This document shows positions 3,601-31,186 of a DNA stretch of 64,000 nucleotides, in pieces. A program made the translations under genes and the position numbers. Position 1 is the stretch's first letter. Each line of letters starts with the position of its first letter. The DNA is from Balanoglossus misakiensis (lineage: Eukaryota; Animalia; Hemichordata), in contig CM082589.2 in NCBI GenBank assembly GCA_040954595.2, positions 11,234,894 through 11,298,893 of the forward strand, read 5' to 3'. The notes below the pieces were generated by a model. That model saw only the letters and a program-made list of their open reading frames with translations, was not told the DNA's origin and did not search any database.

Positions 3601-4208
3601 CGAGCACCTGCTGGATAATTTAATTTTTGCCCTTCTTGTCCCATGATTATATGTGTAATATCTCATTTTCAATGTGTTTACATGTATATATGCAGAATCC
3701 ATTTCAAACTAAGTGGGCATATTGTAGCGCCAATCTTATTTCTTAATCCGCACCACAGAACTGATGCAAGGTTTAGGACTGGAAATGTATGTGGCCACTG
3801 GCCGACACCCCGGGCGAGAGGTCTCCAATTATTTTCAGCACGTAGTGTGCTTCCCGGTTGATAACATCAATATGTGTAAATGCCAAAAACCCGACCTATT
3901 GTAATACCAGTCAAATTTTCTTTGTCATTTACCATTTTTCTCTTGCATATGAACGTTTTTCTTAAAGAGTACATACCCATATACATTTGTATGGGAGCAC
4001 ACATCCCCACCCCCTGCCAACAATAATTGGACAACTTTATTCTTCTTATACTTCTTTTTAGTCTAAACATTCATATAGAGAAGGCAACATGTTCTTGAAG
4101 CTGCTGACTATGGAAATATCATGAAGTACATTTTCCTAGTTGTACATGTACAGTATGATAGGCCCAATGTACCAATTGGAGATGTGTGCCTTACAGGCAA
4201 CATACATG

Positions 4209-6747
4209 TAGCTCTGCATGGCCTGGTTAATCAATGTTGACGCAAAGGTTGACCCTACCAAACACTCAAAATTAATGGGCACGACACTGGCCACTAGCTC
4301 TGCATGGCCTGGTTAATCAATGTTGATGCAAAGGTTGACCCCACCAAACACTCAAAACTGATGGGCACGACACTGGCCACTAGCTCTGCATGGCCTGGTT
4401 AATCAATGTTGACGCAAAGGTTGACCCCACCAAACACTCAAAATTGATGGGCACGACACTGGCCACTAGCTCTGCATGGCCTGGTTAATCAATGTTGACG
4501 CAAAGGTTGACCCCACCAAACACTCAAAATTGATGGGCACGACACTGGCCACTAGCTCTGCATGGCCTGGTTAATCAATGTTGACGCAAAGGTTGACCCC
4601 ACCAAACACTCAAAATTGATGGGCACGACAATGGCCACTAGCTCTGCATGGCCTGGTTAATCAATGTTGACGCAAAGGTTGACCCCACCAAACACTCAAA
4701 ATTAATGGGCGCGACACTGGCCACTAAGCTCTGGCCTGGCTAATCAAGGTTGACGCAAGGGATTACCCCACCAAACACTCAAAATTGATGGGCACGACAC
4801 TGGCCACTAAGCTCTGGCCTGGTTAATCAATGTTGACGCAAAGGTTGACCCCACCAAACACTCAAAATTAATGGGAACGACACTGGCCACTAGCTCTGCA
4901 TGGCCTGGTTTATCAATGTTGACGCAAAGGTTGACCCCACCAAACACTCAAAATTAATGGGCACGACACTGGCCACTAGCTCTGCATGGCCTGGTTAATC
5001 AATGTTGACGCAAAGGTTGACCCCACCAAACACTCAAAATTAATGGGCACGACACTGGCCACTAGCTCTGCATGGCCTGGTTAATCAATGTTGACGCAAA
5101 GGTTGACCCCACCAAACACTCAAAATTGATGGGCACGACACTGGCCACTAGCTCTGCATGGCCTGGCTAATCAAGGTTGACGCAAAGGTTGACCCCACCA
5201 AACACTCAAAATTGATGGGCACGACACTGGCCACTAGCTCTGCATGGCCTGGCTAATCAAGGTTGACGCAAAGGTTGATCCCACCAAACACTCAAAATTA
5301 ATGGGCGCGACACTGGCCACTAGCTCTGGCCTGGCTAATCAATGTTGACGCAAGGGTTGACCCCACCAAACACTCAAAATTGATGGGCACGACACTGGCC
5401 ACTAGCTCTGGCCTGGCTAATCAAGGTTGACGCAAAGGTTGACCCCACCAAACACTCAAAATTGATGGGCACGACACTGGCCACTAGCTCTGGCCTGGCT
5501 AATCAAGGTTGACGCAAGGGTTTACCCCACCAAACACTCAAAATTAATGGGCGCAACACTGGCCACTAAGCTCTGGCCTGGCTAATCAATGTTGACGCAA
5601 GGGTTGACCCCACCAAACACTCATAATTGATGGGCACGACACTGGCCACTAGCTCTGGCCTGGCTAATCAATGTTGACACAAGGGTTGACCCCACCAAAC
5701 ACTCATAATTGATGGGCACGACACTGGCCACTAGCTCTGGCCTGGCTAATCAAGGTTGACGCAAGGGTTGACCCCACCAAACACTCAAAATTGATGGGCA
5801 CGACACTGGCCACTAGCTCTGGCCTGGCTAATCAATATTGACGCAAGGGTTGACCCCACCAAACACTCAAAATTGATGGGCACGACACTGGCCACTAGCT
5901 CTGGCCTGGCTAATCCAGGTTGACGCAAGGGTTGACCCCACCAAACACTCAAAATTAATGGGCGCGACACTGGCCACTAAGCTCTGGCCTGGCTAATCAA
6001 GGTTGACGCAAGGGATTACCCCACCAAACACTCAAAATTGATGGGCACGACACTGGCCACTAAGCTCTGGCCTGGTTAATCAATGTTGACGCAAAGGTTG
6101 ACCCCACCAAACACTCAAAATTAATGGGAACGACACTGGCCACTAGCTCTGCATGGCCTGGTTTATCAATGTTGACGCAAAGGTTGACCCCACCAAACAC
6201 TCAAAATTAATGGGCACGACACTGGCCACTAGCTCTGCATGGCCTGGTTAATCAATGTTGACGCAAAGGTTGACCCCACCAAACACTCAAAATTAATGGG
6301 CACGACACTGGCCACTAGCTCTGCATGGCCTGGTTAATCAATGTTGACGCAAAGGTTGACCCCACCAAACACTCAAAATTAATGGGCACGACACTGGCTA
6401 CTAGCTCTGCATGGCATGGTTAATCAATGTTGACGCAAAGGTTGACCCCACCAAACACTCAAAATTAATGGGCATGACACTGGCCACTAGCTCTGCATGG
6501 CCTGGTTAATCAATGTTGACGCAAAGGTTGACCCCACCAAACACTCAAAATTAATGGGCACGACACTGGCCACTAGCTCTGCATGGCCTGGTTAATCAAT
6601 GTTGACGCAAAGGTTGACCCCACCAAACACTCAAAATTAATGGGCACGACACTGGCCACTAGCTCTGCATGGCCTGGTTAATCAATGTTGACGCAAAGGT
6701 TGACCCCACCAAACACTCAAAATTAATGGGCACGACACTGGCCACTA
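4209..6747. repeat. Satellite array, 83-86-bp unit, ~30 copies
   Basis: Unit tagctctgcatggcctggttaatcaatgttgacgcaaaggttgaccccaccaaacactcaaaattaatgggcacgacactggccac, with starts at 4209, 4295, 4381 and so on. Some variants lack the internal cat. Confidence 0.98.
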
Positions 6748-10551: not shown

Positions 10552-11001
10552 CACAGGGGGCTGCAAACATGAAAGTTATAAATGGCGAAGTACGTTCCAT
10601 TCTGCGTTTTCCCAACCTGTCTTATCATTTGCTAATCCAGAATAAAAGCTATCCATTTCCCATTAATCACCTGCTAACGACTTAATCTGTGTGCCCCATC
10701 CATGGATTAAGTTAATAAAGTAAACATCGGTCAGCGAGTACTGGGTATTCTCTTACCAAGTGAGAACTGACCGATGTTTACTTAATCCACTAAATCCGTG
10801 GATGGGGCACACAGATTAAGTCGTTAGCAGGTGCTTAATTGGAAATGCAATAGTTTGTATTCTGGATTAGCAACTGCTAAGACAGGTGGAGGTAACACAG
10901 AAAAATAAACAAGCACAAAGACTGTTCATCAATTAATGTTTATTGGGGGAAAATGCAGGAACTCCGCCATTTATAACTTTCATGTTTGCAGCCCCCCTGT
11001 G
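10552..11001. mobile_element. MITE / foldback non-autonomous DNA transposon with CACAG termini
   Basis: cacagggggctgcaaacatgaaagttataaatggcg (10552) is mirrored by cgccatttataactttcatgtttgcagcccccctgtg (to 11001). The internal arms at 10620-10740 and 10765-10890 are also inverted. Confidence 0.9.
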
Positions 11002-12952
11002 CGAGTACTACCACTTAGCAGTGGTTCAAGATGATCCTGTTGAAATTGTAAGTTTTTCTCTTATTTCTTTTTTGAACCTGGACCTGGTAATTAGCTTAGC
11101 TTGAGTAATATTGATTATTGGACCTGGTTTGATGTCTTAATATAACAACTACAGAAGAATCTCTGGACACAGTGAAATACACTCCAGGGTTATGGTAATG
11201 ACTGACAAATTGTCAGTTTAAAAAAGTAGACAAAGAACTCAGTTAAATATTATAATAAAAATATGCTTTTAATATAAGGAAAAGGTACAATTGATATACT
11301 TGTAATTAAAACATAAATATAATGATGAAATTCTTCAACTGTTCTGTAGTTGCACCAGTATTTGTATAAGCTAAAAATGTTGACTTCTGGCAGGACAACT
11401 CAAACAGATATTAAACTTATTTATAGTACTTCCACTTCATGACTTTGTTCAAAAATTTCCCAAACTTATTTCATTGTTGATGAGTTGTCACCTCCGAACA
11501 ACACAAAAAGGAACAGTTTGTATAAAAAAGTAATTTTGCATGAATCTTAAACATACATGCACAAGTTGAGTGAATAACACAATATAATCATATTCTACAA
11601 TGAATTACAATATCAAGATTAAGGGTTTCACATATGACATTACATTGCTACATTTTATATACATGAATTTAATTTGAAAAATTTCCATTGATCTATAACA
11701 CCATGAATAATATAAAAATATGCGAATAAATACTTTGAATTATTATATATACATGTCAGGTCTCAAAGTGAGTAACTATATTTCCATTCACCTATGAACT
11801 GGTTATTAACCAAATGAAATGATAGGATCTTTTATTTTGAGGATCTTATAATTGTGATCATACACATCCATATTCCAAAATTCGCATGCCAAACAAATAT
11901 CAGATTTATACGGCCAGTTGTAAAGACAGTACAAGGGGCAAAAAAATTGATAATAGTTAATCATCATCTCCCTTCTTTTACAGTCTTGGAGAATGGTGAC
12001 GGTTGAAGTCAAATTAAAGAAAAATATCAAGAAAAATATCAAAATTTGAAGCACTAATTCAGGAGGATATATATCATCGGGAGGTAGTCACTGAATATAT
12101 TGAGAGAAATAATTCATAATCTATGCATTTGGATGAAAAGACCTTCTATCTGATCAAGTTAAGGATAAATGCTGCCTTGTATGAATACAGAAGCAAGTCA
12201 GCATGCAAAGGGAGAGCTGAATTGGTACACTGTTAAATTTGTCCTCCAAATTCAACAAAAATATGTTGTTGTTTAGGAATTCTTGTATTATCATATCTTT
12301 TTCATTACACAATACCTTATAATAAGTCATAACAAATTTTTAAGGAAAATTCTTTAAAATATGTAAAATATATAGCCTTATAACCAACAACAACATAGAA
12401 AACATTTTCCAGTTTCCGAAAAATATAAATCTTGAGTAATTTCAACAGAAAAAATATGAAAAATCAGTAAAACTTGTGAATTTTGTATTTTTTTCAAAAG
12501 AAAAAAAAAACATGTAGCACTCATGTGTCTCATGCAGTATTTATTCAATTGAAAATTCACGTTTGATAATTTTCTGTCCGCAAAGATAGGTTACTTTGTA
12601 CAGTTGAAAAAAACGAAGTCATGTTATACATTTATCAAAGCATTTCATTTCAGCTGTTCAAGATAATTAACTAGTGTCACCCCTTTTATAGTTGAACAGT
12701 TCTTCATAAAATAATGAAAATAAATATAAATGTTTTGAAATTATAACTAAAATCGGTCGAATTTTCAGATAGCATGATAATATCATTTTTTACAAGAGAT
12801 TTATTCTACTGTCATGTGTTTTTTCATATTAGTCGGTCATTTTTGCAGAAAAGAGTTAATTTCAAATAAAACAATGAATATCCAATAAGAAAATGTTGGA
12901 ATTAAAGGCAGAGAATGGAAATGCGATTTTTTATTGGGAAAGGACTATGTGT

Positions 12953-14381
12953 CAGTGGCCAGACATGTCCGGACGCTCAGGAAGGCCGTCAGTGGCCAGA
13001 CATGTCCGGACGCTCAGGAAGACTGTCAGTGGCCAGACATGTCCGGACGCTCAGGAAGACCGTCAGTGGCCAGACATGTCCGGACGCTCAGGAAGGCCGT
13101 CAGTGGCCAGACATGTCCGGACGCTCAGGAAGACCGTCAGTGGCCAGACATGTCCGGACGCTCAGGAAGGCCGTCAGTGGCCAGACATGTCCGGACGCTC
13201 AGGAAGGCCGTCAGTGGCCAGACATGTCCGGACGCTCAGGAAGACCGTCAGTGGCCAGACATGTCCGGACGCTCAGGAAGGCCGTCAGTGGCCAGACATG
13301 TCCGGACGCTCAGGAAGACCGTCAGTGGCCAGACATGTCCGGACGCTCAGGAAGACCGTCAGTGGCCAGACATGTCCGGACGCTCAGGAAAGCGCTCAGT
13401 GGCCAGACATGTCCGGACGCTCAGGAAGACCGTCAGTGGCCAGACATGTCCGGACGCTCAGGAAGACCGTCAGTGGCCAGACATGTCCGGACGCTCAGGA
13501 AAGCTCTCAGTGGCCAGACATGTCCGGACGCTCAGGAAGACCGTCAGTGGCCAGACATGTCCGGACGCTCAGGAAGGCCGTCAGTGGCCAGACATGTCCG
13601 GACGCTCAGGAAGGCCGTCAGTGGCCAGACATGTCCGGACGCTCAGGAAGACTGTCAGTGGCCAGACATGTCCGGACGCTCAGGAAGACTGTCAGTGGCC
13701 AGACATGTCCGGACGCTCAGGAAGGCCGTCAGTGGCCAGACATGTCCGGACGCTCAGGAAGACTGTCAGTGGCCAGACATGTCCGGACGCTCAGGAAGGC
13801 CGTCAGTGGCCAGACATGTCCGGACGCTCAGGAAGGCCGTCAGTGGCCAGACATGTCCGGACGCTCAGAAAGGCCGTCAGTGGCCAGACATGTCCGGACG
13901 CTCAGGAAGACTGTCAGTGGCCAGACATGTCCGGACGCTCAGGAAGGCCGTCAGTGGCCAGACATGTCCGGACGCACAGGAAGACTGTCAGTGGCCAGAC
14001 ATGTCCGGACGCTCAGAAAGGCCGTCAGTGGCCAGACATGTCCGGACGCTCAGGAAGACTGTCAGTGGCCAGACATGTCCGGACGCTCAGGAAGGCCGTC
14101 AGTGGCCAGACATGTCCGGACGCTCAGGAAGGCCGTCAGTGGCCAGACATGTCCGGACGCTCAGGAAGACTGTCAGTGGCCAGACTTGTCCGGACGCTCA
14201 GGAAGACTGTCAGTGGCCAGACATGTCCGGACGCTCAGGAAGGCCGTCAGTGGCCAGACATGTCCGGACGCTCAGGAAAGCTCTCAGTGGCCAGACATGT
14301 CCGGACGCTCAGGAAGACTGTCAGTGGCCAGACATGTCCGGACGCTCAGAACGCTCTGTAAGTGGGGCTGGACATGTCCGG
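12953..14381 (+). repeat. Left subterminal tandem array, 37-bp unit, ~38 copies
   Basis: Unit cagtggccagacatgtccggacgctcaggaag(g/a)c(c/t)gt with period 37 (12953, 12990 and so on). Copies are nearly identical. Confidence 0.98.
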
Positions 14382-15253
14382 ACACTACACATTTAACACA
14401 AGTATGCCTGAACATGCAGATATATTTACAAAATAGAAATTCTTTATTAAAAATGAAAAGAACAACCATCAAGAACACTGTGGCCCTTTCTGGTGATTAT
14501 ACATAAACAGGTGTACACCAAAATTAAAACTACATTATATGCAAACATCACCAAAGTTGTACAACATCCTACTTCAATAACCATGGTGAACATGCCTACC
14601 AAAGCTTAAGGCAATCTGACGATCAAGTTAAAAGAATACAATGTTTATGAATAACTGCAAAATTCTCCTAAGAGCACAGATAATGCCAAAAATCGGCCAA
14701 AATTGCAAATTTTACAATAATTTGAGACCTTACATTTTTCATTCCAATATATCACATTATAAAAAAATTCGACTGGACATGCATATCAATTATTCAAAGC
14801 AATCTGACCAGAAGTTCTGGAATTTATTATTACAGAGTTTTGACAAGTTTTACATTTTCCCACTAATTTGCAATGACAACTTCATTTGAATGATATCTAC
14901 AGCCAGGTCTGCATCTACACACCAATTATGAATGTGATACACATAGTGGATTCCAATTTTTTGGTTTGGATGAACATACATACATACACATAAATACATG
15001 TACATACAGACCTATGTACATGCATGACGTTGACCTAACGATCCAATGAGGTAAAAGTAAGTAAAGTGGTTCTGTGGCTGTCATATTGACTCTTGAAAAA
15101 GTATGTTGCTGCGATATGAATGTCATGGCTATTTTTGTGACACTGTATTGTCCATGAAAAATTTCTGAAAACATAATCACTCATGGACGCAAAACAAAGA
15201 ATTTACCTTCTTTTATCTAAGTTGATATCCACATAGGTTTATAAAAGCTAAAA

Positions 15254-18200
15254 TTATGGATCATCCTCTTCCCAATCCATATTCTCTTCTGAATAATTCT
15301 CAACTGCTTGTGTCTCGCAACGAATACGGCAAAAGTCTGTCTTCATTTCATCATTGTCAACACCAACAGCATTTACACCATTGGCTAATGCTGTTACCAA
15401 GGCATTTCCTGAAAACAAAAAAATAGAGAAAGAGTTTCAGCTGTGCAGTAACACTACCTTGTACTTATGTTACAATGTCACCAAAGTAACACACCAGCCA
15501 CCAATCAAACTGATAGGAATGCGATGTGAATTAAAGTTTTATGAAGGTGTTCAGTAGTAATGTGTAACTGCTCACAGGGAATACAACTATACCACATAGT
15601 CCTGTTTAAACATCAGTGCACTTAAATTTCCTTTGGTGGCTAAATATCTATTAAAGTGGAACGTTGTGATCCGTTTTTGAGCCAATTCTGCGAAATGCGA
15701 TTAAAAAGTACTATGAAAAACGTTGGTTTCATTCACTTTCACTTACGCATAACAGAGCTACAGCCAGCCAAAAACTGCGCGAACCCGGAAGTGAGTGACG
15801 TCAGCAACTGTTGTCCGCTGCCGACGCGTTGGAGCGAGCTTATGCTTATACACGCCTGCACTCACGCGACCGACGACGTTAGCATAGCAACATATTCTCG
15901 GGTAGTAGGCTACAATTTTGAACCAGAGATTCCCTTCTACGACCAAGCGACTGAATTTTACAGAGGACAAAAGTTCATGCAGTTCTGATCTCCGATGTGT
16001 CCCGTTTGTCAAGGCTTACACTTGGTGTGGTTTCAGTGAAACCATAGACCCTAGAGTCTATGGTGAAACAGACAATGCTGCAATTAAACAATACCCTCCC
16101 TCGTTGTCTCTCCCTCGTTGTCACCTTTTCGAACCACTTTTCTTACAAAAATACTTAGTCACCTTTTATGGAGTTGAAAAGAACGCAGGTGCATCGTCCT
16201 GCTCTCCAGGTGTAGTACGTCCGTAGTATAATGGAAGCCAATGCTATAGTTATTGTATGCATGTTTCGTCTCTTGAAATGTATTAAAACTGCCCTTTTTA
16301 GTTGCTTTCATTTGATAACTATGCGATCGTCAATAAATGGAAATTAAACCCAAATACGTGTACCAAAAAACGTGCAGGAAGGATTTAATACGGTACGTTT
16401 ATTATTATCAGCGGCAGTTAGAACAACTTTGTATAGGCCTTACGGTTTGTTCATAAACGTCGACATGCATGGCATCATGGACATTGCAGGGTCTATGTCT
16501 GCACGCATCGACAAATACAATACTAGTACACGAAGAGCACTGCCTTTGAAAGAAACTTATCCCCGTCGATTTTCCGAATATGTTTTTAAAATCATGAACT
16601 TGACATTTCGCCATGTCAGATCCGCGCAAAATGTGTCTGTTTATTGGAAATGACACGTCGAACGTGTAAGTTGCTGACGTCACTGTAGTATTTTCAACGC
16701 GCGTCTACTGCTTGCGCAGGAAGTGAAAGTGAATTAACCCATCGGAACGTTGCCGTTTTTGACACCCGGATTGTACTTTGAAGCCCAAAATTGAGGGTGT
16801 CGTTCCACTTTAATATCTATTAATACTCTCAGGGATAAATATCATGTTTAAAGAATCTGAGAGGCTTTTTTTGAACAAGCAAGTCAGCTTAAATATTTCT
16901 CTGCATTACCTGATTATCAGGCAGTGAAACCAAACCAAAACAGACTTTGATAGTCCTGCACATTGCTGTATCATTGTACAAACTGCGGAATGGTATTTTA
17001 AAGTGTACAATACTCATCAATGAATTCTGCGTACTTGTCAAACATGTACTCTCAGCTGTGACAGCTGTCATATTTTTGGTTGTTTGTTTTGCTAGAGATG
17101 CTTATTTTTTTAGAATCATCTATATCATTGAAGCTTAGGTTTTTAAGTCAAATGAAGAATCTACAACCTTGTTTAAAAATTCTGGATCAGATGTCATTGT
17201 TGAAACATACCTGCGCCACATCTGCCGTCTAGCATCCATGATCCTTTATGGGTAAAATTCTTAATTATAATGTCATAGATTTTCCTGGGTTTCTGGTCGG
17301 CACAAACCATGCGTCCCTCAGCATCTCTGTCTGGCATGTCACTGGTAACAGTCCAAAAATTATGGTGGCCAGCCACAGACACTTGATCGTTGGTAACTCC
17401 ATTTGTTTCTGATGCATATGCAACAACAAATGCCTTGACAGCAGGTGTCATCGTGACTGTAGATACTATAGACATGAGAAGAGAAGAAAAGTATAAGAAA
17501 TATACCCTATACAATGTACATGTATTGTATCTGGTGCCATTTGATATTTACTTTTGCATTATGCAACAAGTAGCATCCATGGCATACAACATGACAGCAA
17601 TTTGAATTTACATTCCTATTCTGGAAAAATGAGATGAAAAAATAAACCAACAGCAAAGCTTATATGAGTAGAGCACAAATGTCTCATAGGAAGGCAAGTA
17701 TATATGCTCAGCTTTTCTCAGATCTTACCTGGTTTAGTATTTTCGATGTAATAAAATGCCTCCTCTATTTTTCGGAAGCATCTGGCTTCTTTCAGCGTAC
17801 TTCTTACCATAGACAACTTTTCAACGTCACAGAGTATCACTAGTCTATAGCTTCCTAATTTTGTATTTAGGTTCTTGACAACAATTGTCAACTCCCTCAG
17901 GTCTTCAGCTGTCCATTCCTGGATATTAAAAAGATCACACCAAAAAAGAATAAATCAGTTAGGATTTCCTTAGTTATTCAGAATATTTGTAAATACCAAA
18001 CTTTGACGGGCAGCGAACATGTATACTTCACACCAAATTTGAACTTGGTTGGCAATGTAGAATTTGGGAAGAAGTCATTCAAAGGTTTTCAGAAAATCCA
18101 ACATGGCTGCCAGGTCATGTGACTTATTAAATATTCATGAGTCACTGCACGACAACTCATTGGCCCCTATCAAGTTTGAGCCCAGTAGGTGCTGTGGTTT

Positions 18201-21200
18201 TTCAGATTTAGCTGGCCGAGAAAAATCAGGGAAGAAAAATAATAAGAACAAAAAATTCCAACAAAACCAATAAAGTACTTACAGCTGGTAAATCCATGAG
18301 GATTAACTCAAATCCTTCAGCGGTGACATCATTATCATCTAGATATTGTGGGTTTAGTTTAAGAACTTCAGTGTTGAACACTGCCCCTTGGCACTGGTGA
18401 CTGCCAGAAAAAACAGGGCAGAGCGCTTTCCTGGCAGCTTCATCCTTTGATGCAGCTCTCCTCAGTCGTCGACAATAACCCTTAAATGGTTCCGGTGCTG
18501 TTGGCTTGAAGTTTAGTGTAGCAAAACGTAGAAGACTACTACGATTTGTTGCATCTGGATACCTTTTCATAGCCTCGCTCCAATCTTCAACATCCATCTC
18601 AGAAATGAATGCCCGCTGAATTAGCAAGAGTTTTGTTAAAGTTTTGCTTTCTTTCACCATGTCATCAAGGCTGGTCCTCAGGTCTAAAACATCACGAACA
18701 AGTTCTTTTATGGTGTCTTCATCAAGGGAGCGCAGATGTTTAAACCGATACGGCTTTATATCAGGTTTGCTGATTCTGTCCTTTTTTAGCAGTCTCTGTT
18801 TTTTTATGTCACCTTGATCGTGAAGTTTGAACAGCTTCATAAACAAGGAATACAGATCCTCATCATACGATGCAATCATACATGCCATATCCACTTCCTG
18901 TGTGATCTTTTCCTGACAGACAAAAATAAAACAAATTAGTTATTTTCAGTAATTTAGATTCAGCAAGTAGCAATAGCCACCAATTTGCAAAGGAAAAACA
19001 AGTCAAAGCCACACTGTGAACATAGGTGACAATTGGCCAAATTTCCGATAAATCTTTTCATTTTAAACCACTAATGCAATGCACATATTGATGGATGCCC
19101 AGTGATTGGATCTGCTTATGAATATCAGTCAAACTAAAATTTACTAGGGGCTGCTTGGACTGCACTATTTCATCTTCAGTAATGAATGGTGTTTGTTAAA
19201 ATCTAGCAGTAAAAGTCACTCCAAGGTGCTATAATTGTTCTATGTAACTTAGTACCACTGCCAACATAATCAACATTGAATTACCTCATTTAGAATTATC
19301 TTGCATGAATTTTTCCACTCAGCCTGAGTGACATTCTCGGATATTGCTGATCGATTGGCACGGCAGATAGCCACCTATAATAAAAAATGTAACATAATGC
19401 CATTATGATCATGTACTGTAGTATACAGTGGTATGACAATGCAAGTCCAAACATGCAAAAATATAACAACTGAGAACATACCAGTATTAAAATTTGTGTT
19501 TGTGATCAGAGTTTATAAGGCTTCTCTCTTGGTGACCATTCACACACAAAATTGTGAAAGGCCAGGGATTGAGTGACCCTGCTTTATTTGATAGAATCTG
19601 AGCTCCTGCTCAAACAAACAGCATCAAAACCCGAATAATTTCTGACACCAATATCACATATTTACCTTGTCTTTAAACGACAGTCCATGGCGGAATTCGC
19701 CTGTTTTATTGTGTCGAACCCCAAGCCATTGTCTTTCTTCTTCACCAAGAGCAGCATACACAACACAGTTTAGCTTCTTGAACCGTTCTTCATTAGGGTG
19801 ACGCTTAGATAATTCCTGTGATGCAAGAAGTGTGTGGTTTCCTCCAATGACCTCATACTCATAACCATTAACCTGTTTAACATTTTAGGAAAATTAGAAA
19901 AATTAAGTGTCAAATCGACTTGTTACCAACTTGTGAACAATATACATATATAAATTTCTTCAAGGAAAAATTTTGCACTTTGACTCACCTTTGTCTTGTC
20001 AAATTGGGCTGTACTTGCTAACCCTTTCACTGATAGGCAGAGAGGCTGATAAGCTTCGTCCCTATAAACCTGCATGGACTTGATAAGACTTTTTAGGAAA
20101 ACTGGGTCCTGTTCTCTTACTTGTTGACTTCCAGTTTCTAAGGCACGTGTGCTGACCAAAAAATGACCTTGAATGCAAGAGGAACATGTTTTAGATCAAC
20201 AGACAATTTTCATCTTAACAGAGCTGTATGTTTTGGGGTATAATGATTATCTGTAAAAGTTCAATCCGCTGATCAGAACATCCAACTACTGAGAAAAGCA
20301 TGCAGATTTGAGTGTCCCATAGTAATGTTACAGAAACTAGTGGGAACACCATTTGCCTAAGCAGCACCTCCAACAAAATGAGTCTAATTTGGTGGTGCTT
20401 TTATTCTGTATTGGTTGAGGAGTGGGGATCATGACCTATGAGTGTCCAATTATGTACTATTGCAACATCATATAGATGTTAATTTCACATAAAAAAAATA
20501 GAATATAGTCACTGTAGCACTAGTAACGTTGTTATTTAGGATTTGCTCATTCTCTACTAAAAAGTAAAGTTTCCAGTAAATGGGAAAATTCATAACCTGC
20601 AAGTTGTTCAAAATTTTTCATGATTTGTGAATAATGTTTCTTGGAGCCTTTTTAATGAGTATTTAGCTTACAGTGGAACAGCATTACTAGTCTCACTATA
20701 TTTTTGAGCTCACAAAGTAACCTCATCCAGCTTTTTTGGGAATCGATTGGAAATCAAATTCAAATACAGTAACTTACCACAAAATGCACGCTGTACATTT
20801 GTTTCAACACTTAGTCTCTCATCATCTTGTGGTTTTTTCTTCAGTGATAAAGCACTCACAGATATGTCTGAAAGCTTGCGCTTCTTTGACCTGGCTCTGC
20901 TAACTAAACATGATTGAAAGAGACACATAATTGCTATGACAAAAACAACAATAGATCAGAATCAGAATACAGTGCCTCTTCATCCAACAAAATCATTATA
21001 CCCGAGATATTTCACATAGACTTAGCTATATTAACACTTACACTTTATCGAATGCTCTCTCTTTGTCAGCTCTACAGTGTGATTTTCCACTTCTTGGCGG
21101 GGTGCTGTCTTCTGACATACTGGATTCACACTCATCTTCTTCATCAATGGATGAAGTTGATTTCTCCAAGTTGACCTGCCCTCTCAGGGATTGAAATATT

Positions 21201-22061
21201 TCAACCATTTCCCCCGAAGAACAGGCTTCTCTAAACTTCTTGCTAAAGGGTGACTTGTTCCATTCGAAGAAATCTCTCTCCAAAATAAACCTAAATCCAG
21301 CTTCTTCGCTCCCTGTTACAAATTTAAACTGAAAAAAGAACGAATGGTTATCGATCAGAAATAGTCTTAGTTTTTGGGTAGTTCTCAGAAAATTATGAGT
21401 GCTGTACTATGGTCGAAAACGTGTAAACGTAGCTGTATCGCGGGGGTACAGGTCTGTGTGTTTCCGGTGTTACACGGCCGTGTACCGCCGGGAACACACG
21501 TACACAGACGTGTACGCAGGGCTAGGGTACCCACTATTCTCAATATACAGGCTCGGGCCGTTACTGTGGACGTACGTTCCCAGGCAAAACCTCGGACGAA
21601 CTCTGGTTTTGTGTCGTGTCTGAGCCTCGAGCTACGTAACAACTCGCTGTGGAGTCGTTGTACCATGGCTCTCCCTCGACAAGGGGATCGGATAGCGACT
21701 GTCCTTGAACGTGTAGTCGAGTGTACGCACATGGCTACGAACGCACAGAACTGCACTCTGTAGCTCTGTGTACAGGTCTGTGTCGCCGGGCTGGTCCCCG
21801 GCGTGGTGGAGGCCGTGTAACGCCGGGAACACACAGACCTGTGCGCAGAGCCAAGTCCCTCAACAGGGACTTCGCCTATATGTACCAGTATTACAAAAAT
21901 ATGCTTACCTTGAGCTTACCGTCGGCTACAGACATCGACTTAATCGCACCGAACTCGGTACCCTTCTTTCTATTCTTCATACGGCACCGCTTACCATTTT
22001 CCAGGCAGTAGAGATACACTTCGTCATCTACTTCTTCGAGCCACCACTTTCTCTTGCCCAT
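15254..22061 (-). CDS. Transposon-borne ParB/Srx-like domain plus beta-class amino-methyltransferase-like protein (~752 aa, 10 exons)
   Basis: Exons (GT-AG, phases consistent): 22061-21909 (ATG in ACCATGG), 21328-21042, 20899-20778, 20167-19989, 19872-19666, 19374-19285, 18912-18283, 17918-17729, 17456-17211, 15408-15254 (TAA). ParB-like part: QVRE..LKSLIKSM..YQPLCLSV..YEVIGGNHTLLA..RHN. MTase-like part: LILMDLPAEW (motif IV position), QKPRKIY, WMLDGRCGAGNALVTALANGVNAVGVD (motifs I-II). Confidence 0.8.
15655..16809. mobile_element. Non-autonomous Kolobok-like element in the last intron of the ParB-MTase gene
   Basis: TTAA|AGTGGAACG ... CGTTCCACT|TTAA. Internal inverted motifs: gtgacgtcagcaact/agttgctgacgtcac and ttcactttcactt/aagtgaaagtgaa. 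Confidence 0.8.
18030..18272 (-). repeat. Fragment of the dispersed repeat family at 40458-43930, inside a transposon intron
   Basis: caccaaatttgaact...atggctgccaggtcatgtgact...actcattggcccctatca matches 41440-41640. Confidence 0.75.
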
Positions 22062-22129
22062 GGTGAAATGTTGGACATCTCTCTACTAGGAAGCGTCTTA
22101 TATAGGTGAAAACTGCATTCATCTTAGAG

Positions 22130-22353
22130 CGTTAAACGGTTGACAAGGCTTGGATCACCACTGCTTTTGCAATTGTAGGTGTTAATTGTTTACCCGACGC
22201 TTGGCAATGCTCTACAGGGACGACGCTGTCACTTCCTGTTTACTTCCAGGCGCGCAAGCATCGTTTGGGCGAGTTTATTTCCAATGTTGAGTCCAAAGCA
22301 TTGGGCAATCTTTGATCAACTTTTAACGCGCAACATCGGCGAAACTTTTGAAC
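22130..22353. promoter_or_regulatory. Duplicated block upstream of the ParB-MTase gene (copy 1)
   Basis: cgttaaacggttgacaaggcttggatca...gtcacttcctgttta...gcgcaagcatcgttt...gttgagtccaaagca is also present at 24313-24582. It is CpG-rich and begins ~70 bp from the ATG. Confidence 0.5.
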
Positions 22354-24312
22354 AAAAATATGACAAGTCCGATGTTCTGCCAAGGCAGAACCATTTCCGG
22401 TTACCGCAAAAATAAACAAATAAATAAATACGCGGTCAATACACTTGTCTACGGCTCTCGAGCTCCGCGCAGTAACCCCCAAAAGAAATGGTGCTGGTCT
22501 TGACATCTTGATATCAACGATGCGAATTTTAACTTTTTCCTCCTTGGATCAATCCTAATTGTCCACATTCTCATGAAGTTTTGCTATACCCCTGTATATA
22601 TATGGCGGAATAAATTGCACACTTAGACAATGCACTGTGTTCTGGATGTCACTGTACAACTTTACATGTATTTTAGCACAACATTGAAAACTCGGACTAC
22701 TTCAGGTGGTCTGCGGGTAAAATGGGACGCGTGATGCTGACCACAACCATTTCATTATTTTTCCTTTTTTGGGCTGAGACGTAATGCAACTGTAGCAACA
22801 CCTGATTTGCAAGCCTACACTAAACTGAACGTGGAAGTGCTCGTCGACCCTACCAACATTTTCTAGCTCTGCGCGCGTACTGCAGGTCTGTGTGTTCCAC
22901 AGACCTGTGCGCAGAGCCTGACGCAGAGCTACACATTTTCGAGAGACATATCATTCTATTTTAGTATTTAACGGAATTTTACACAAAGAGGTTTGCAATT
23001 GTAACCATGCAATTTTATTCTAAAATGGCTTTAAACATCAAATTAGTAGCTACCAGGTTTCGCGCCATATGAGTGCTTACGCGTACGCTGTGCTTCGGAC
23101 CCAGCTGCCCACTGATCACATATAGACGGACGCCGCGCGGGCATCGTACGCGCACGCTCGCGTTGCAGAGCGATATACCAAAACTACAGTCACTCCACAC
23201 TGTACAGCTACATGTGATGTGAGAATCCACCGCAAATAGACTTTTATCTAGAGTAAAAGTAAACTTGGAGATTTGTGTGTTATTTTTTATGACGAGTGAA
23301 GTTGATCGTATAGTTTCGAACTTTTCACCAAAACACGTACACCGCGGCCCGCTAAATATGCAGCGGCGTTGGCTGGTTTATCACAGCGGCCCAACTGGCC
23401 TACCTGGGGTCTATATTAAGTTGGTGGAAATATGGGACATGTAAAATTGTTTTGCTGCCTTCACTTTTCATGTAATCTGACGATATCAATGTGCAAAACA
23501 GGTCGATTTGTTTCAAGGAATAGAGAAATCGATGGTCAGTGTACGGGTGTCAATCGGTTTCTTTTGCACCACGGAAACATAGACCAAAACATAGCTACCA
23601 TGACAAGTGAAAACTACTAGTATTTTATGTACCAGCCGCAGACAATGGTAGATGATAGAGAAGGTAGCGAGTGATCTTTTTCGAACATCCATGTATACAA
23701 GTCGTTTTTCAGGAGCCGTGCAACTTCCTAGGGCAACCTCGAGCTGCAGGCGAGAAGTTGTTCGCCAAGAGCTGTGAAAACGACGAATTGCATTTTTAAT
23801 GGGGAATGCCATGTATTCCAAAACCATTAATGTGACAGGATTTCAAAAAGTCTAAGAAACTTTCATTGTCGGCGAGGTCAAGTCAGTGCAGTCGGTCAGG
23901 ACATGTACGCGTTTCCGCGCAAATATTTATAAACGGTCGCTGCGACAGAATCTCAGCCTAGGACTTATAGAGTGTGACTTGTTTCCACATTTCGATGACT
24001 GGAGTTTCAGTTGTCAAGCGCTGAACTGGCCCGAAACCATTTCGGGATTTCTGTGTTTTTTTAGTTCGGCCGGTAAAGGTGACAAATGTCAGTTTGCACG
24101 AAAACAATTGCCCTTTTAATCGATCTAATCGTGACATAGCTGTGGTACTCAGCTTACCGGTATGGAATTTACCAAGAGAAAATGTCATGGAACCATAATT
24201 TTAAAGATCTTTACTGTAAATGCTAACGTTGTAAAATGTAAAATTTTCTGCATCTGGATTATTGATCTGTCCTCATTACGTCACACAGGTGGTGATTCAT
24301 GCGATAACGCCA

Positions 24313-24800: not shown

Positions 24801-27800
24801 ATGGCGTGCACATCTCGAAGTAGAAGTCCAGGAGCCAGCAAAACCTTTTCAGGAGATTCCTCTTGTGAACTCCTGTTTGACGAATCAACTGACAGTGGAA
24901 GTTCAGGAGCCAGTGAATTTTTTTCAGGAGATTCCTCTTGTGAACTCCTGTTTGACGAATCAACTGACAGTGGTACCTTGCCAGATTCTGACGGTGAGTC
25001 CATCGGTAATGATGACAGCATTTCAGTTGACCTGCCAGTGCCACGCGATTTTGACCCAGAGAACGTTGACAGAAGTAAGGGTCGTGATGAGTGCCCCGGG
25101 TCAGATCAAGACGACACAACAGAAATTGTATACGATGATTATAGTTCTGACAGCGATGACGAGTCATCGGCTAGCAGTAGCAATAGCTACCTGGTAGGGA
25201 ACGAAGAGTTCGGCGTCGAGCAACCGACCCACAGGCGTCCGACGATGTCATCCTCTACACCGGCAAAGAAGAAACGACGTATTGGTGAAGTGGTTCGAAA
25301 CCCAGCCGAGGTTCTGATGAAATGTTGCTGCGAAGACCTGTGTCTTAGAAACGTTACAGTGAACGACATTATAGCCTGTGATCGAAGAATGAAAAACATG
25401 AACGAGTGTAGACAAAAACAATGGATACTTTCATGTATCCGCGATAATTCATATAAGCGGTTCATAAAATCGAAACCTGTGGTAGAAGTGAACCTAAGGA
25501 TCGCCGGAAGAAGTATTTGTCGTTTAGCCTGGCAAATTGCCCACAACGTTTCTGACTATCGTTTTGAAGAATGCATAAAGCTTTTTCGGGATGATGTTCA
25601 CTCTGTGAGACACGGCAACGAAGGTCGAAAACTCATGCGAGACAAAACGTCGGCTGCAATAGCATGGATGCGGTTTTATTTTGAACGAATGGGCGATTAC
25701 ATGCCGAACAACGCAGGCAAAGTCATTCTACCGTGTTCGTGGACAAAGTTGATGGTGTATGAAAGGATGAAGACGGAATTCGTGGAGAGATGTTTACCAA
25801 AAGAAGCTATCATCTGCTATGATTACTTTTGTAAAGTGTGGAAATTGCATCTCTGTGAGTTCGTTATAGGAAAGGTAAGTACTGTTCTGCAGCATGTAAA
25901 TTGTAGTTGCAATGATTGTGGTGGTGGTCAGTGGACGCTGCTTGACGTCCGCACAGACAGTGTCGTCAACCGAGTAGTACTCGCTATTTGCTGCCTAAGG
26001 CTGTATTTTATGACGATAAATGTCTCTTGTTCTAAATGAAAGTGTAACTTTTTTTATGTAGACCCACTGCGCCATTCTTTCTTCATATTGTTACAGTAAT
26101 TTTCTTGTTTTTATTTCTGTCTCAGGGACATGAGTTTGTTTGCTGTGATACATGTGTTCAACTCGATGAACAGTATGCCAAAGCGAAGACAGAGTATGAG
26201 AGAAATCAGATAAAGGCACTGGTTGCTCGTCATTTAAGCCAAGTTGAGTAAGTATCTTCAGAATATAATTCCTATCAAATACAATTTTAAAAAAGAACAA
26301 CAAGTCGTTCAACTTATAAGGGTAATTATTTTGTTATATCAACATATTGCATTGCCATAAATTTTGATGTATTATCCACACCATATACTGTTCTAGTCCA
26401 TGTAGCTTGTTAAAATGACTTTTCCCTATTTATTTGTTATAGGAATGAGCGCAAACGCTTCCACTATCACCGAGAGAAAGCTGAGAAGGAGCCGGATGAA
26501 ATAATGGCAATAATACAAGATGGAATGGATCAAAACAAGACTGATTTACCTCATCTTGTTAAAGAGGACAAGGCTACATCAAATTTATGGAGATTGAGAA
26601 CGCATGTCACAGGTACCATTTACATGTAATAGTCAAATAGTTTTATCTACATTCAGTGAATTATTTATATCGAATGACAACACATACTGTGGATGAGGTG
26701 TGTTACAGTTAGTGAAATTCTGTCTAAGTGGGATTGTACCCCAAATGACGCATTCCCAGATGAAACACATGCGCTATTGTTTATAAAATATTATATTTTT
26801 CTTTACACAGGTGACATTCTCCATACTGGAGTTGCCAGTGGAAAGATCCCGTATGTTTTTATTGATGTCAACGAAATTCCACACGACAGCAACTTGACTC
26901 TAAATATTCTGTTGGAGGTATTGGTTGCTGCCAAAGACAGACTGGCGAAGGCATTATACTTGCAACTAGATAACTGTTTTCGGGAAAACAAGAACCGTTA
27001 TCTTCTCAGTTTAATGGCCTTGATGGTCCAGCTGGAGATCTTTGATGAAGTAAGTATACACCTGTTTTATTATTACAATATGTTTTGACACAAACCAGCT
27101 GAACACAGAAACAAACTTTGGTTGTCTGATAGTTAATTTACAGGCGTTGCATGTAATTTCAGGTGACATGGTATTTAATAGTACATGTATATATAGGTTT
27201 ATTTACAACGTGCACAATCACAGTTTCTGTGGTGCAACCAAATTGATGAAAATATGGAGTAGATAGTCGACTTATTGCAGCTTTACAAATATTTTTATTA
27301 CACATCTATGTGAATTTTCTGCCGGTGGGTCATACACATGAAAACGTTGACCAAATGTTTTCAAAAATATCTGCGGGGTTGAAGAGAGCCAATGCCTACA
27401 CACTGGAAGGTGAGTCTAGGTTTGAATGTCTGAGTACAGATAAGGTGTGTGTGATAGACCTCTACACGTTTGCTACTTATTCTTATATTTTTAATATTGT
27501 CGAAACACTACCTTGTTGACTGTAATTGCCAATATTTAACCCCTTCCACAAAATACTCTGCCCATTCAAGTATTTATTGCTGTTAAATCCCAAGAGTGGA
27601 ATCAAATGTTTCAGAATATGTGATCAACTTTGCATTAAAAATCTGATGTTAAGGGGTTAACAGCACTATTATAAATAGAACTTTACATTCAGTAGTAAAT
27701 CAGTGCTTGTAAGTTGTAAAATTATATCCTGAAATTGGAAAATGGAAGACACTCTTCTGTACATACATGTATATCCTCTTTCAGATCTGATGACAATAAT

Positions 27801-29702
27801 CGCCAGCAGCTACACACCTACCATCAATGTCAAGCTACTGAAGAGCACCTTGAATATTAAAGAATGGTTGATTCCGCATATACATACAAGATTCTCTGGC
27901 CACTCACGTCCACACAATTTCCGTTTCCGAAAAGTAGATGGCAAGGCGTATATGAACTACAGGGAATGGTCGACTGACGCATGGCAGCCACTGAATAAGG
28001 ATGGTGCTGATTCACCAGGTCTTCTTTGCCTTAAGGTATGTGTCACACACGCATCACATGAGTAGGCTATTTTCATGACCTGCACATGACATTCGATCCT
28101 TTATTGTACAACAATGTACTTCCATTGGTATGAATTCATTCAGTCTGCTAAATAATAATACAATGAAGAACGAACTGAATTACCAAGGTGTACATGGAAA
28201 TGTCCTATTGCCATAGACCATTTGCTCTGTGCTGAATAACGTAATATTGTGTGACCATTGTATTTCTTACAGACTATCCCTGACATCAATGTGCCACCAC
28301 AGTGGGTTGTTCCCAGTTTATTGAAGCTGGATGTGGATAACCTTACCAGAAGTTTACCAAATGGGTTTAGGCACAGAATGCCTAGTCAAGCAGTTGAAAA
28401 CTAGAAAGAGTTCATGGCCAACATTAAAGACCTCGAGAAGGTAAATAATTTAACTGAATCCTTGTTGTGGTAACTTTTTCTCAAATATTTTTTCCTAGAC
28501 TGATAGGAAGAGGGTTTAAATGCAATTTTCACTCAAAGTTTGTGCCCCTGAGTGGTATTATCATTGATCACATCAGATATAAATCAACATTATATTCCGA
28601 AGTTTTATGTTTCAGATTAAATAAAACCATTCTCACATTTATACATCCAGGTTCCTCCTACCACTCCTCAAGAATGGCACCTTCACATTTTGAAGGAGGC
28701 AGCAGAAAGAAGGAGACAAGGCAGAGCACATGCGATGGAATGTATTCCTGATAATATCAAGAAGATAAGGGATAAATTGACTGTCCCATGCCCTCCAGTA
28801 AGTGTAAAATTGAAGTGCACTTTTTTTCTTGAAAGTTTGTTAATTGATATCTCTGTTTGCTGGTGCTTGCAATGTGAACTTGTATACACAGTACAATGTG
28901 TGTTCGTACTGTCTTGAAATTCTGAAGAATCTGTACAGAATCAAACATTTGTTTTTATAGGTAATAATAGGAGCCCAGGGTAGGGAAGTGCCAGCTCCAG
29001 TTCAGGAAATGGAGGATTTCAGCTCAGTGACGAGTGGAATGCTTGTGGCAGTATGGGCACCAGACAACGATGCCAGGCCCCAACTCGCAAAAGTTCTCGA
29101 TAGAGGGAAGGGAATGCTGAAAATACATTGGCTTGTGGGGAACTATAATGGCGCATGGAAGGAGGCATACCATGGCGTGGGAGCCCGAAGGACAGCATGG
29201 CTGGATGATATTCCAGTGCAGTCTTGTATTTTGTGGGACTTTGCTTTCACAAAGAGGAACCACCTTAAGAAGGCAACAGTGGACGAATTAAAAAAGAAAT
29301 ATTTCGAACTTGACACAATAAGGTAAGACCCCCTCTTTGCATTCACATAAATTTAATGTATTTGTTTTGTTTCCTCTGTTTATACATCACTCTTTATTAG
29401 GATACTCTGCCATATGGAGATGATGTCAAAACAGGTCATCTTGTATGTTTGATGCATTTTTCTTATTAATATACTGGTTTTTGCTTTATAAAATAGATTG
29501 AACAATACAGTTGCAGAGGAGTTATGGTGTGTTGTGAAGAATTGATGAAAATTACAAAAGCATATATGCTTACTTATTTGAAGAAATGAATTTGTGCTAG
29601 GGTTTTAGCCATGTTTATTGAAGTTTTCATAATTACTTCCTGTTATTTACAATTTGCAGTGATGATGACGATAGTGATGGTGCTGCGAACAGCCAGATGT
29701 GA
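24801..29702 (+). pseudogene. Sola-like (DUF7869-type) DDD transposase, ~890 codons, 10 exons, damaged
   Basis: Exons: 24801-25874, 26126-26247, 26443-26612, 26811-27049, 27304-27409, 27785-28035, 28273-28440, 28651-28797, 28961-29322, 29660-29702. Motifs: CCDTC..H, IIQDGMDQNKTDLP, HVTG, LYLQLDNCFRENKN, FLPVGHTHENVDQMFS. Lesions: CAC instead of CAG acceptor at 27301-27303, and an in-frame TAG at 28402-28404. Confidence 0.85.
27540..27656. mobile_element. Small TTAA-flanked MITE (piggyBac-like ends) in a transposase intron
   Basis: TTAA|CCCCTT ... AAGGGG|TTAA. Confidence 0.5.
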
Positions 29703-30033: not shown

Positions 30034-30590
30034 CTGAGTTTCGGGACATGTCTGGCCACTCAGCTTGCTGAGTTTCCGGACATGTCCGGCCACTCAATGG
30101 GCTGAATTTCCGGACATGTCCGGCCACTCAGCTTGCTGAGTTTCCGGACATGTCCGGCCACTCAATGGGCTGAATTTCCGGACATGTCCGGCCACTCAGC
30201 TTGCTGAGTTTCCGGACATGTCCGGCCACTCAATGGGCTGAGTTTCAAGACATGTCCGGCCACTCAGCTTGCTGAGTTTCCGGACATGTCCGGCCACTCA
30301 ATGGGCTGAATTTCCGGACATGTCCGGCCACTCAGCTTGCTGAGTTTCCGGACATGTCCGGCCACTCAATGGGCTGAATTTCCGGACATGTCCGGCCACT
30401 CAGCTTGCTGAGTTTCCGGACATGTCCGGCCACTCAATGGGCTGAATTTCCGGACATGTCCGGCCACTCAGCTTGCTGAGTTTCCGGACATGTCCGGCCT
30501 CTCAGCAAGCTGAGTTTCCAGTGAGTTGAACGGCTGGACATGTCTTGAAACTCAGCCCGTTGAGTGGCCGGACATGTCCGGAAACTCAGG
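30034..30590 (-). repeat. Right subterminal tandem array, 34-bp unit alternating as a 68-bp dimer, ~14 copies plus 2 inverted copies
   Basis: Units ctga(g/a)tttccggacatgtccggccactca(gcttg/atggg). The reverse complement tgagtggccggacatgtccggaaactcag resembles the left-array unit. Orientation flips after ~30520. Confidence 0.95.
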
Positions 30591-31186
30591 CAGCTTGGTA
30601 ATGACATTACTTTGACTGGTAGGGCATATTTTTATACAAAAGTTTATATTCTATTGATATATTCATTTTTTCACATTGAAAATTGCAAAATATTTGAATG
30701 CCGTAATTTTTTTTTTATTTTAAGTGCAATAAGCAAAAATATGTATTACTTTTTGGTGCTTACATTATTTCTTCAGAATTTTCTCAGATTGAGATTAGAA
30801 AAACAAAATCCCATAAATTATTGCAGTAAAGAGGCAAAAAATAAAATTATTAAATAAATATAGTTTTTTCTGTGGTAATAATGAGAAATAGTCTGTTTTT
30901 CGGAAACTGGGAAATGTTTTCTATACTGTTCAACATACTTTAAAGATGATTATTTATGATCATTTCATTCAGATGTTGCTAAGAGTGTAATAATAAAGAT
31001 CTGTTTCACTCCAACCAATTTAATGTGCGCTTATCACAGTACTGTCGTCTGACAAAGCATAACTATTATTGTTATCATTTATGGGATTATACCAAGCTTA
31101 TCACAGTACTGTGTCAACTCACAAAATGAAAACCATTCTAGTTATCATTTGAATTATACCATACATGTACACACAGAGATGGCACA

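What the first reader, a model, noticed from the sequence alone, without database searches (positions are those of the whole stretch)
12953..14381. Left array: ~38 copies of a perfect p53-type half-site among palindromic MTase-like target sites
Seen: nearly every 37-bp unit contains AGACATGTCC, which fits RRRCWWGYYY, plus TGGCCA, ACATGT and TCCGGA palindromes. Variation is almost confined to the linker between cores, and core CpGs show essentially no decay. Established: RRRCWWGYYY is the p53-family half-site, and transposon subterminal repeats are often transposase-binding sites. Inference: a protein-binding array for the transposase, the ParB-like cargo or host p53/p63. The 27-bp gap between half-sites is longer than in canonical p53 elements.
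Basis: partly seen in the sequence, partly recalled or inferred. Interest (0 to 1): 0.7.

Follow-up and report, generated by a model that had tools for sequence, protein, structure and literature searches.

The report
Transposon palindrome array with ParB-like partner
This row of 39 near-identical repeats is one of two matching palindrome arrays near the ends of an 18.5-kb jumping gene, likely docking sites for a bacterial-type ParB-like protein that the element itself encodes; the match to the p53 motif is likely coincidence, since related elements carry arrays of other palindromes.

Summary
The array is real: 38 units of 37 bp plus one degenerate unit, all 39 fitting RRRCWWGYYY. It is the left subterminal array of a DNA transposon at 12389-30930 (35-bp TIRs, 4-bp TSD CAAC, empty site seen in contigs). 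A 34-bp array near the right end shares 24 of 29 core positions. The conserved unit is a ~30-bp dyad, not a 10-bp decamer. The element encodes a DUF7869 transposase (one in-frame stop) and, divergently, an open gene whose homolog folds as ParB-like plus beta-class amino-methyltransferase; the catalytic motif is degenerate. Related elements carry the same gene pair and dyad arrays of other sequences; 0 of 11 arrays hold a p53 half-site. No canonical p53 site exists (gap 27 bp). Best reading: parS-like self-recognition sites for the element's ParB-like protein (0.6); transposase binding is the main rival. The design was proposed for algal transposons in 2025 (Ectocarpus Sola1-1_Ec32, Bostrychia PAG3), untested; this looks like an animal member.

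The parts
12385..12388 (.). Left target-site duplication CAAC
   Evidence: Same 4 bp at 30931-30934; contigs of runs X1/X2 run through the flank to 12389 and go on with letters identical to window 30936 onward, i.e. the empty site
12389..12423 (+). Left terminal inverted repeat (starts AAC)
   Evidence: 91% match over 35 bp to 30896-30930; summed contig depth falls from about 3000 to 60 in X1 across this point
12951..14382 (+). Left subterminal array: 38 x 37 bp plus one degenerate unit; each unit an imperfect ~30-bp dyad centred on GACA|TGTC plus an 8-bp variable linker
15254..22061 (-). Accessory gene, about 10 exons, about 720-760 aa: ParB/Srx-like domain, helical region, beta-class amino-methyltransferase fold with degenerate motif IV (DLPA)
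   Evidence: Exons match Ptychodera P0121 at 40-63%; no internal stop in an automated exon model whose junctions are approximate; fold from a model of homolog P0272; PF01555 E 6.6e-14 in P0272; PHROG ParB-like hit in P0121 E 3e-4
15650..16706 (.). High-depth repeat nested in the last intron of the accessory gene (approximate limits)
   Evidence: Depth about 4000-5800 against about 55 in X1; one 1052-bp contig in X3/X4
24801..29326 (+). DUF7869 (PF25273) DDE-type transposase gene, 9 exons, one in-frame stop near 28402-28404
   Evidence: Pfam; tblastn with Saccoglossus P0001, 36-72% in the exon-level matches; invariant D336, near-invariant D420 and E459 in A1; weak RNase H/transposase Foldseek hits, E 0.002-0.05; exon model
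30034..30590 (-). Right subterminal array: 14 units of 34 bp (68-bp dimer) inverted relative to the left array, then 2 flipped units; near-perfect 30-bp dyad
   Evidence: best 29-nt match to the left unit 25 against at most 20 in 300 shuffles
30896..30930 (-). Right terminal inverted repeat (ends GTT)
30931..30934 (.). Right target-site duplication CAAC

Best explanation
The array is the left of two matching rows of ~30-bp palindromic sites inside an 18.5-kb DNA transposon, and it is likely a parS-like loading platform for the ParB-like accessory protein that the element encodes. Shown: element limits, TSD and empty site; both genes; the shared dyad at both ends; the folds of a homolog; dyad arrays of other sequences in related elements. 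Inferred: a dimer of the accessory protein reads each dyad through the helical region behind its ParB-like domain. Many dimers would then load near both ends and coat the element, regulating its two divergent genes and likely shielding it from host silencing. In relatives the arrays lie in the divergent intergenic region, which points to gene regulation rather than end cutting. The methyltransferase domain is likely a non-catalytic or altered DNA-binding module in this lineage. Copy number is likely raised by slippage or unequal exchange, with selection keeping the dyad. The p53 half-site at the dyad centre is likely coincidental.
For: (1) The left 37-bp and right 34-bp units share 24 of 29 core positions but not the linker, and the core is dyad-symmetric out to 14-15 bp. 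(2) The model of homolog P0272 matches ParB-family structures (PadC Z 10.2, rmsd 2.7, 96 aligned; Pnob8-like ParB Z 9.8, rmsd 4.8, 207 aligned over residues 192-457; Myxococcus ParB Foldseek E 4e-6) and beta-class methyltransferases (CcrM Z 22.6, rmsd 2.8, 215 aligned). (3) The gene pair is conserved: consecutive accessions at two Ptychodera loci, and scaffolds of identical length at two Saccoglossus loci. 10 of 80 metagenome loci have accessory-gene hits. (4) 12 of 80 loci carry three or more copies of a perfect dyad against 0 of 80 shuffled. A relaxed pattern gives 11 arrays of TCGATRC-NNN-GYATCGA, six of them (L027, L028, L030, L046, L047, L050) between a divergent accessory gene and the transposase. 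When only one arm is used for selection, the other arm is 94% conserved and the linker 63% (10 arrays). (5) Dyad variants follow transposase subclades. (6) L063, a distant relative, has a divergent ParB-like ORF and its own dyad. (7) The same association is reported in red algae (bioRxiv 10.1101/2025.02.11.637652, passages).
Against: No binding data exist here or in the passages read. The fold is from a homolog (32-57% identical in matched exons), and a helix-turn-helix was not isolated and searched alone. The ParB motif reads GG.H followed by T/N/C/L/S, without the arginine of CTP-clamp ParBs (motif recalled). The 11 TCGAT arrays belong to one clade and count as one lineage. Among 23 loci with at least 2 kb upstream, accessory-gene hit and strict dyad array co-occur in 4, occur alone in 4 and 4, and are both absent in 11. 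L086 has ParB-like and DPPF motifs but no repeated dyad in its contig. Here the arrays are subterminal at both ends, as transposase-bound repeats are, and no dyad lies between the two genes. L085 and L087 have non-palindromic 22-bp terminal arrays with an OTU cargo instead.
Confidence: 0.6

Rival explanations
1. The arrays are transposase-binding subterminal repeats that help pair the two ends, as in CACTA or hAT elements (recalled); the accessory gene does something else.
For: Arrays sit 560 bp and 340 bp inside the two termini in inverted orientation. The TIRs are short (35 bp). Relatives L085/L087 have terminal tandem arrays without a ParB-like hit.
Against: In six relatives the dyad arrays lie between the two genes, not at the ends. 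The dyad shares no sequence with the TIR (one search lists no such match in the part shown). Dyad arrays accompany ParB-like genes in unrelated transposon superfamilies in red algae.
Confidence: 0.2
2. The arrays are neutral minisatellites: one ancestral site near each end was amplified by slippage, and core conservation reflects recent homogenisation.
For: The left array is very young (2 core differences in 1073 positions) and the linker bias rests on 3-6 events, P up to 0.07. Other tandem arrays occur nearby.
Against: Left and right units differ in period and linker yet keep 24 of 29 core positions and dyad symmetry. Older arrays in relatives keep both arms while linkers and spacing diverge.
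Confidence: 0.08
3. The arrays were selected as binding sites for host p53/p63, coupling the element to DNA-damage signalling or serving host repression.
For: All 39 left and 16 right cores fit RRRCWWGYYY, mostly with a CATG centre. The single core change in unit 34 still fits. p53 elements occur in a zebrafish DNA transposon (PMC3485254, abstract and passages).
Against: No two decamers lie 0-13 bp apart, the canonical definition in PMC3485254. Conservation extends about 10 bp beyond the decamer on each side. 0 of 11 arrays in relatives hold a half-site. A palindromic decamer arises easily at the centre of a dyad. No animal relative's array could be read, so an animal-specific gain is not excluded.
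Confidence: 0.07
4. The arrays are substrates that the accessory methyltransferase marks with 4mC or 6mA, and the mark is the functional signal.
For: Beta-class fold is intact in the homolog model, motif I-like and QKP residues are kept, and non-animal relatives keep DIPY or DPPF. Self-modification is proposed in PMC12477816.
Against: Motif IV reads DLPA here and DVPN, DTPQ, DVPD, DMPK, DMPQ, DKPK or DMDE in animal homologs, never with the aromatic residue. SPPY is needed for activity in rotifer N4CMT (PMC8885841, passage).
Confidence: 0.05

Closest known systems
Sola1-1_Ec32 of Ectocarpus (PMC12477816; passages and supplementary table rows read; figures not seen)
   Same: Giant DNA transposon (21.5 kb against 18.5 kb); 4-bp TSD; termini begin AAC and end GTT (AACCG-CGGTT there); accessory gene on the opposite strand with ParB-like and N4C/N6A methyltransferase domains; nested insertions
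   Different: Brown alga against a probable hemichordate-like animal; 282-bp against 35-bp TIR; no palindrome arrays mentioned in the passages read; motif IV is degenerate here; sequence homology to that element could not be tested
Plavaka accessory gene PAG3 of red algae (bioRxiv 10.1101/2025.02.11.637652; passages read; supplements closed)
   Same: ParB-like accessory gene with tandem arrays of inverted repeats, proposed to bind its own element
   Different: EnSpm/Plavaka transposase; ParB fused to a 2OG oxygenase, with the methylase in a separate SET fusion (PAG2); arrays beside the gene rather than at both ends
Plasmid centromere arrays such as F sopC/SopB, and KorB operators (recalled; structural hits to ParB, KorB and Spo0J)
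   Same: Tandem units each holding a palindrome, next to a ParB-fold protein
   Different: Eukaryotic transposon; no ParA-like gene was seen; CTP-binding arginine absent; longer dyad; methyltransferase fusion
p53 response elements in zebrafish EnSpm-N6_DR (PMC3485254; abstract and passages)
   Same: RRRCWWGYYY decamers inside a DNA transposon
   Different: There paired decamers form full sites in a 346-bp non-autonomous element; here single decamers lie 24-27 bp apart inside a longer dyad

Membership tests
Canonical p53 response element | Decamer RRRCWWGYYY | tested here: met
   39 left and 16 right matches
Canonical p53 response element | Two decamers with a 0-13 bp spacer (definition in PMC3485254) | tested here: not met
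   No such pair in the window; gaps 27 or 30 bp left, 24 or 40 bp right
Canonical p53 response element | Binding and response to a p53-family protein | not testable with these tools
   Needs ChIP or reporter assay
Sola1 DNA transposon | 4-bp TSD | tested here: met
   CAAC on both sides, empty site in contigs; 4 bp for Sola1-1_Ec32
Sola1 DNA transposon | Termini like Sola1-1_Ec32 (AACCG-CGGTT) | tested here: inconclusive
   AACA..TGTT: first three bases agree; one reference element only
Sola1 DNA transposon | Transposase homologous to Repbase Sola1 proteins | not testable with these tools
   The defining paper was not held and no Sola1 sequence was found in supplements. The transposase is DUF7869 with liverwort relatives; the Ectocarpus element's best hit is Sola1-1_PPa, a moss family by recall
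CMCT clade (EnSpm/CACTA, Chapaev, Plavaka) | CA..TG termini in most members (PMC12730594) | tested here: not met
   Termini AAC..GTT
CMCT clade (EnSpm/CACTA, Chapaev, Plavaka) | C(2)C and H(3-4)H between second D and last E | tested here: not met
   The conserved C276/C279 lie before the first putative catalytic D336; between D420 and E459 only GHTH is invariant; catalytic residues inferred from conservation
ParB/parS-type system | ParB/Srx-fold domain | tested here: met
   Homolog model: PadC Z 10.2, Pnob8-like ParB Z 9.8, Foldseek E 4e-6; GG.H and HN invariant
ParB/parS-type system | Linked array of palindromic sites | tested here: met
ParB/parS-type system | Helix-turn-helix DNA-binding domain behind the ParB domain | tested here: inconclusive
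   Alignment ranges to 5k5d and Spo0J span residues up to 457 and 447 but with rmsd 4.5-4.8; domain not folded alone
ParB/parS-type system | GxxR CTP-binding motif of clamp ParBs (recalled) | tested here: not met
   GG.H followed by T, C, N, L or S in 12 of 12 rows
ParB/parS-type system | Sequence-specific binding and spreading | not testable with these tools
   Needs EMSA or ChIP
Beta-class N4C/N6A DNA methyltransferase | Fold and motif order | tested here: met
   CcrM Z 22.6, M.PvuII Z 19.4, N4CMT Z 18.7; PF01555 above cut-off in P0272, P0125, P0274
Beta-class N4C/N6A DNA methyltransferase | Catalytic motif IV (D/N/S)PP(Y/F/W) | tested here: not met
   DLPA in the window; no aromatic in animal homologs; DIPY in L030, L035, L037, L047 and DPPF in L086

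The most novel reading that the evidence does not exclude
An animal transposon lineage runs a bacterial-style ParB/parS self-recognition system in which a ParB-like protein with a disarmed methyltransferase loads on end arrays and spreads over the element. In this lineage the site has also converged on a perfect p53 half-site, so that host p53-family proteins and the element's protein compete for the same 55 sites and tie transposon activity to DNA damage.
Probability: 0.1. Interest if true: 0.85.

Novelty: new member of a known kind. Interest (0 to 1): 0.52.

Why it matters
Eukaryotic transposons that recognise and regulate their own DNA with a dedicated protein are rare; the Bostrychia preprint names only VANDAL elements as known cases. 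ParB-type accessory genes were proposed in algae in 2025 without tests. This locus gives an animal example with an open gene and a defined 30-bp candidate site in 55 copies. Related elements whose sites differ by lineage allow a direct swap test of protein against site. No report of such a system in animals turned up in ten full-text searches; Repbase Reports and subscription journals were not searched, and earlier unchecked notes of this scan describe a similar animal element.

Tried and rejected
No whole genome is held, so sister copies and their arrays in this host could not be read. No RNA holder was listed. Word-based search with the largest accessory exon found nothing; the ESM Atlas gave no usable hit; phmmer then found 162 relatives. 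Pfam gave no hit for the accessory exons alone. A three-core GACATGTC pattern in viral contigs gave 16 loci, none with a transposase hit. The transposase was not found in viral contigs. Runs X3/X4 cover mainly the high-depth repeats at low depth and gave no information on the array. Positions 12763-12945 had no contig cover; not interpreted. Sola2 was considered: the Sola2 alignment file had no GHTH or DNC string (PDF spacing may hide them). Lanisha was considered: the passages give no defining features and the supplements could not be read. A 2-bp TSD reading (AC with ATAG termini) was rejected because the empty site requires 12389-30930 with CAAC. Five further fold searches found the machine busy, so the transposase has only weak Foldseek hits and the ParB region no second look. 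phmmer of the L086 ParB-like part against PDB gave 0 hits; the profile match of A3 to the L063 ORF is weak (probability 27%). Earlier-finding look-ups by place and sequence were empty. The CpG-protection argument was rejected for lack of power.

Full report
Observation. The array lies at 12951-14382: 38 units at exact 37-bp spacing and a 39th degenerate core. All 39 cores fit RRRCWWGYYY; 37 of 38 full units read AGACATGTCC. Over units 1-37 (38 and 39 left out as edge units) the core has 2 differences in 1073 positions and the linker 39 in 296. These come from only 2 and 6 distinct alleles, so P is 0.002 at best and 0.02-0.07 when linked variants are merged. Intact core CpGs (74 of 74) say little: the array is too young, the linker CpG has decayed in 10 of 37 units, and the element is not CpG-poor.

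The real unit. A second array at 30034-30590 has 34-bp units in inverted orientation. Left and right share 24 of 29 core positions and not the linker; the best 29-nt match is 25 against at most 20 in 300 shuffles. The core is an imperfect dyad of about 30 bp centred on GACA|TGTC, near-perfect on the right. The p53-type decamer is its centre. No two decamers in the window lie 0-13 bp apart, the canonical spacing given in PMC3485254 (passage).

The element. Inverted repeats of 35 bp at 12389-12423 and 30896-30930 are flanked by CAAC on both sides. In runs X1 and X2, high-depth contigs follow the left flank to 12389 and continue with letters identical to window 30936 onward, which is the empty site; a contig holding the element's left end is laid only from 12389. 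The interior is tiled by unbranched contigs of 0.7-2.7 kb with about 0.5% differences at depth 45-60 in X1. That suggests a low-copy element inside a high-copy repeat; the tool warns that depth is no copy number.

Genes. The plus strand holds a nine-exon DUF7869 gene with conserved D, D, E residues, weak structural hits to RNase H-like transposases (E 0.002-0.05) and one in-frame stop near 28402. The minus strand holds an open gene of about ten exons (junctions approximate). Its relatives occur in Ptychodera, Saccoglossus, Holothuria and Exaiptasia. A model of the Saccoglossus homolog P0272 (mean pLDDT 80.7) matches beta-class amino-methyltransferases (CcrM Z 22.6) and ParB-family domains (PadC Z 10.2; Pnob8-like ParB Z 9.8). 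Motif IV is DLPA here and lacks the aromatic residue in all animal homologs read. The nearest relatives of both genes are from acorn worms, so the host is probably a hemichordate or related animal (inference). The two genes have consecutive accessions at two Ptychodera loci and share scaffold lengths at two Saccoglossus loci.

Relatives. A scan of metagenome contigs returned 80 loci, the best of 500 confirmed. Ten have tblastn hits to the accessory gene; Pfam or PHROG add ParB-like or methylase ORFs in L051, L063, L086 and L094. Twelve of 80 carry three or more copies of one perfect dyad, against 0 of 80 shuffled. Eleven arrays are built on TCGATRC-NNN-GYATCGA, mostly at 31-54 bp spacing; none holds a p53 half-site. 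Six lie between a divergent accessory gene and the transposase; the other five contigs end within about 2.2 kb upstream. Selecting on one arm only, the other arm is 94% conserved and the linker 63% (10 arrays, L050 dropped for too few exact arms). Arm variants follow transposase subclades, but these loci form one clade next to liverwort proteins and count once. L063, L092 and L054 have other dyads. Against my reading: among 23 loci with 2 kb or more upstream, gene hit and strict array co-occur in 4, occur alone in 4 and 4, and neither occurs in 11. L086 has the gene and no array in its contig. L085 and L087 have non-palindromic terminal arrays with an OTU cargo.

Mechanism. Shown: a two-gene transposon whose ends carry rows of one long dyad, in a family where dyad rows are common and their sequence is lineage-specific. 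Inferred: the binder is element-encoded, and the ParB-like protein is the best candidate, because ParB-family proteins bind palindrome arrays as dimers (recalled, and stated) and because in relatives the arrays sit in the divergent promoter region, away from the ends. I infer that it loads on the arrays and regulates or shields its own element (0.6). CTP-driven sliding is not supported, as the arginine motif is missing. Transposase binding is the main rival (0.2) because the arrays here are subterminal. A neutral minisatellite (0.08), host p53 (0.07) and a methylation target (0.05) follow. Incidental p53 binding to so many half-sites is possible under any reading.

What is known. Ectocarpus Sola1-1_Ec32 is a 21.5-kb element with 4-bp TSD, AACCG-CGGTT termini and an opposite-strand ParB-like plus N4C/N6A methyltransferase gene, proposed to bind and modify its own sequence (PMC12477816; passages and supplement rows). 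Red-algal Plavaka elements carry a ParB-like gene beside tandem arrays of inverted repeats (bioRxiv 10.1101/2025.02.11.637652; passages; its supplements are closed and may bear on the comparison). The window's element works like these; Sola1 membership is likely but untested by sequence, and CMCT membership fails two features (PMC12730594, passages). Also read in passages: PMC4738411, PMC8885841, PMC3627910 with supplements, PMC8245031 and its preprint, PMC5751038, PMC4455052, and a supplement search of PMC3985635. Bao 2009 and Yuan and Wessler 2011 were not held. Ten searches found no animal case in print. Unchecked notes of this scan, seen only after my reading was formed, describe similar elements, one in an animal.

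Verdict. This is a probable animal member of a recently proposed, untested class of self-recognising transposons. Interest 0.52.

Noticed in passing
window 28970-29323 (+): The last transposase exon matches the extreme C-terminus of human NIPBL in PDB 6wge_E/6wg3_E (phmmer E 1.3e-9 over 90 aa; family profile E 2.4e-16), and a Saccoglossus cluster member is auto-named Nipped-B-like. The NIPBL tail may derive from this transposon family, or the reverse; one literature search gave three listings whose titles do not concern it.
   Followed up: partly
L051:2360-5743, L094:4516-5970, L086:1095-5099: Distant DUF7869 elements carry N6_N4 methylase ORFs; L051 and L094 are fused to SET, like red-algal PAG2, and L086 has an intact DPPF and a ParB-like motif.
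   Followed up: partly
L085:711-4283 and L087:3-1151: DUF7869 elements with a divergent OTU-protease ORF and a 22-bp non-palindromic terminal array.
   Followed up: no
L023, L027, L028 arrays: Successive dyads alternate in orientation, shown by the flipping 3-bp centre; the window's right array also ends in two flipped units.
   Followed up: no
window about 11000-12388 and 30935 onward: The element interrupts an unidentified high-depth repeat, next to a 300-bp palindrome at 10600-10902.
   Followed up: no
window 15650-16706, 18026-18251, about 21450-21850, 22130-22353, 29709-29826: High-depth repeats nested in introns and non-coding parts of the element.
   Followed up: no
window about 33000-40500 (-): Exons of a large host gene with cysteine-rich repeats and sushi-like segments (domain names recalled, not scanned).
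   Followed up: no
window 62645-63964 (-): Integrase ORF (rve and H2C2 zinc-binding domains) of an LTR retroelement at the window's end.
   Followed up: no
window 4209-6747 and 49089-51599: An 86-bp x 30 minisatellite and a 2.5-kb (ATGT)n tract; no link to the element found.
   Followed up: no
window 26830-26902 and joint 29623 to 26706: Contigs with clustered differences and a backward joint suggest a second, diverged or tandem copy of the transposase region in runs X1/X2.
   Followed up: no
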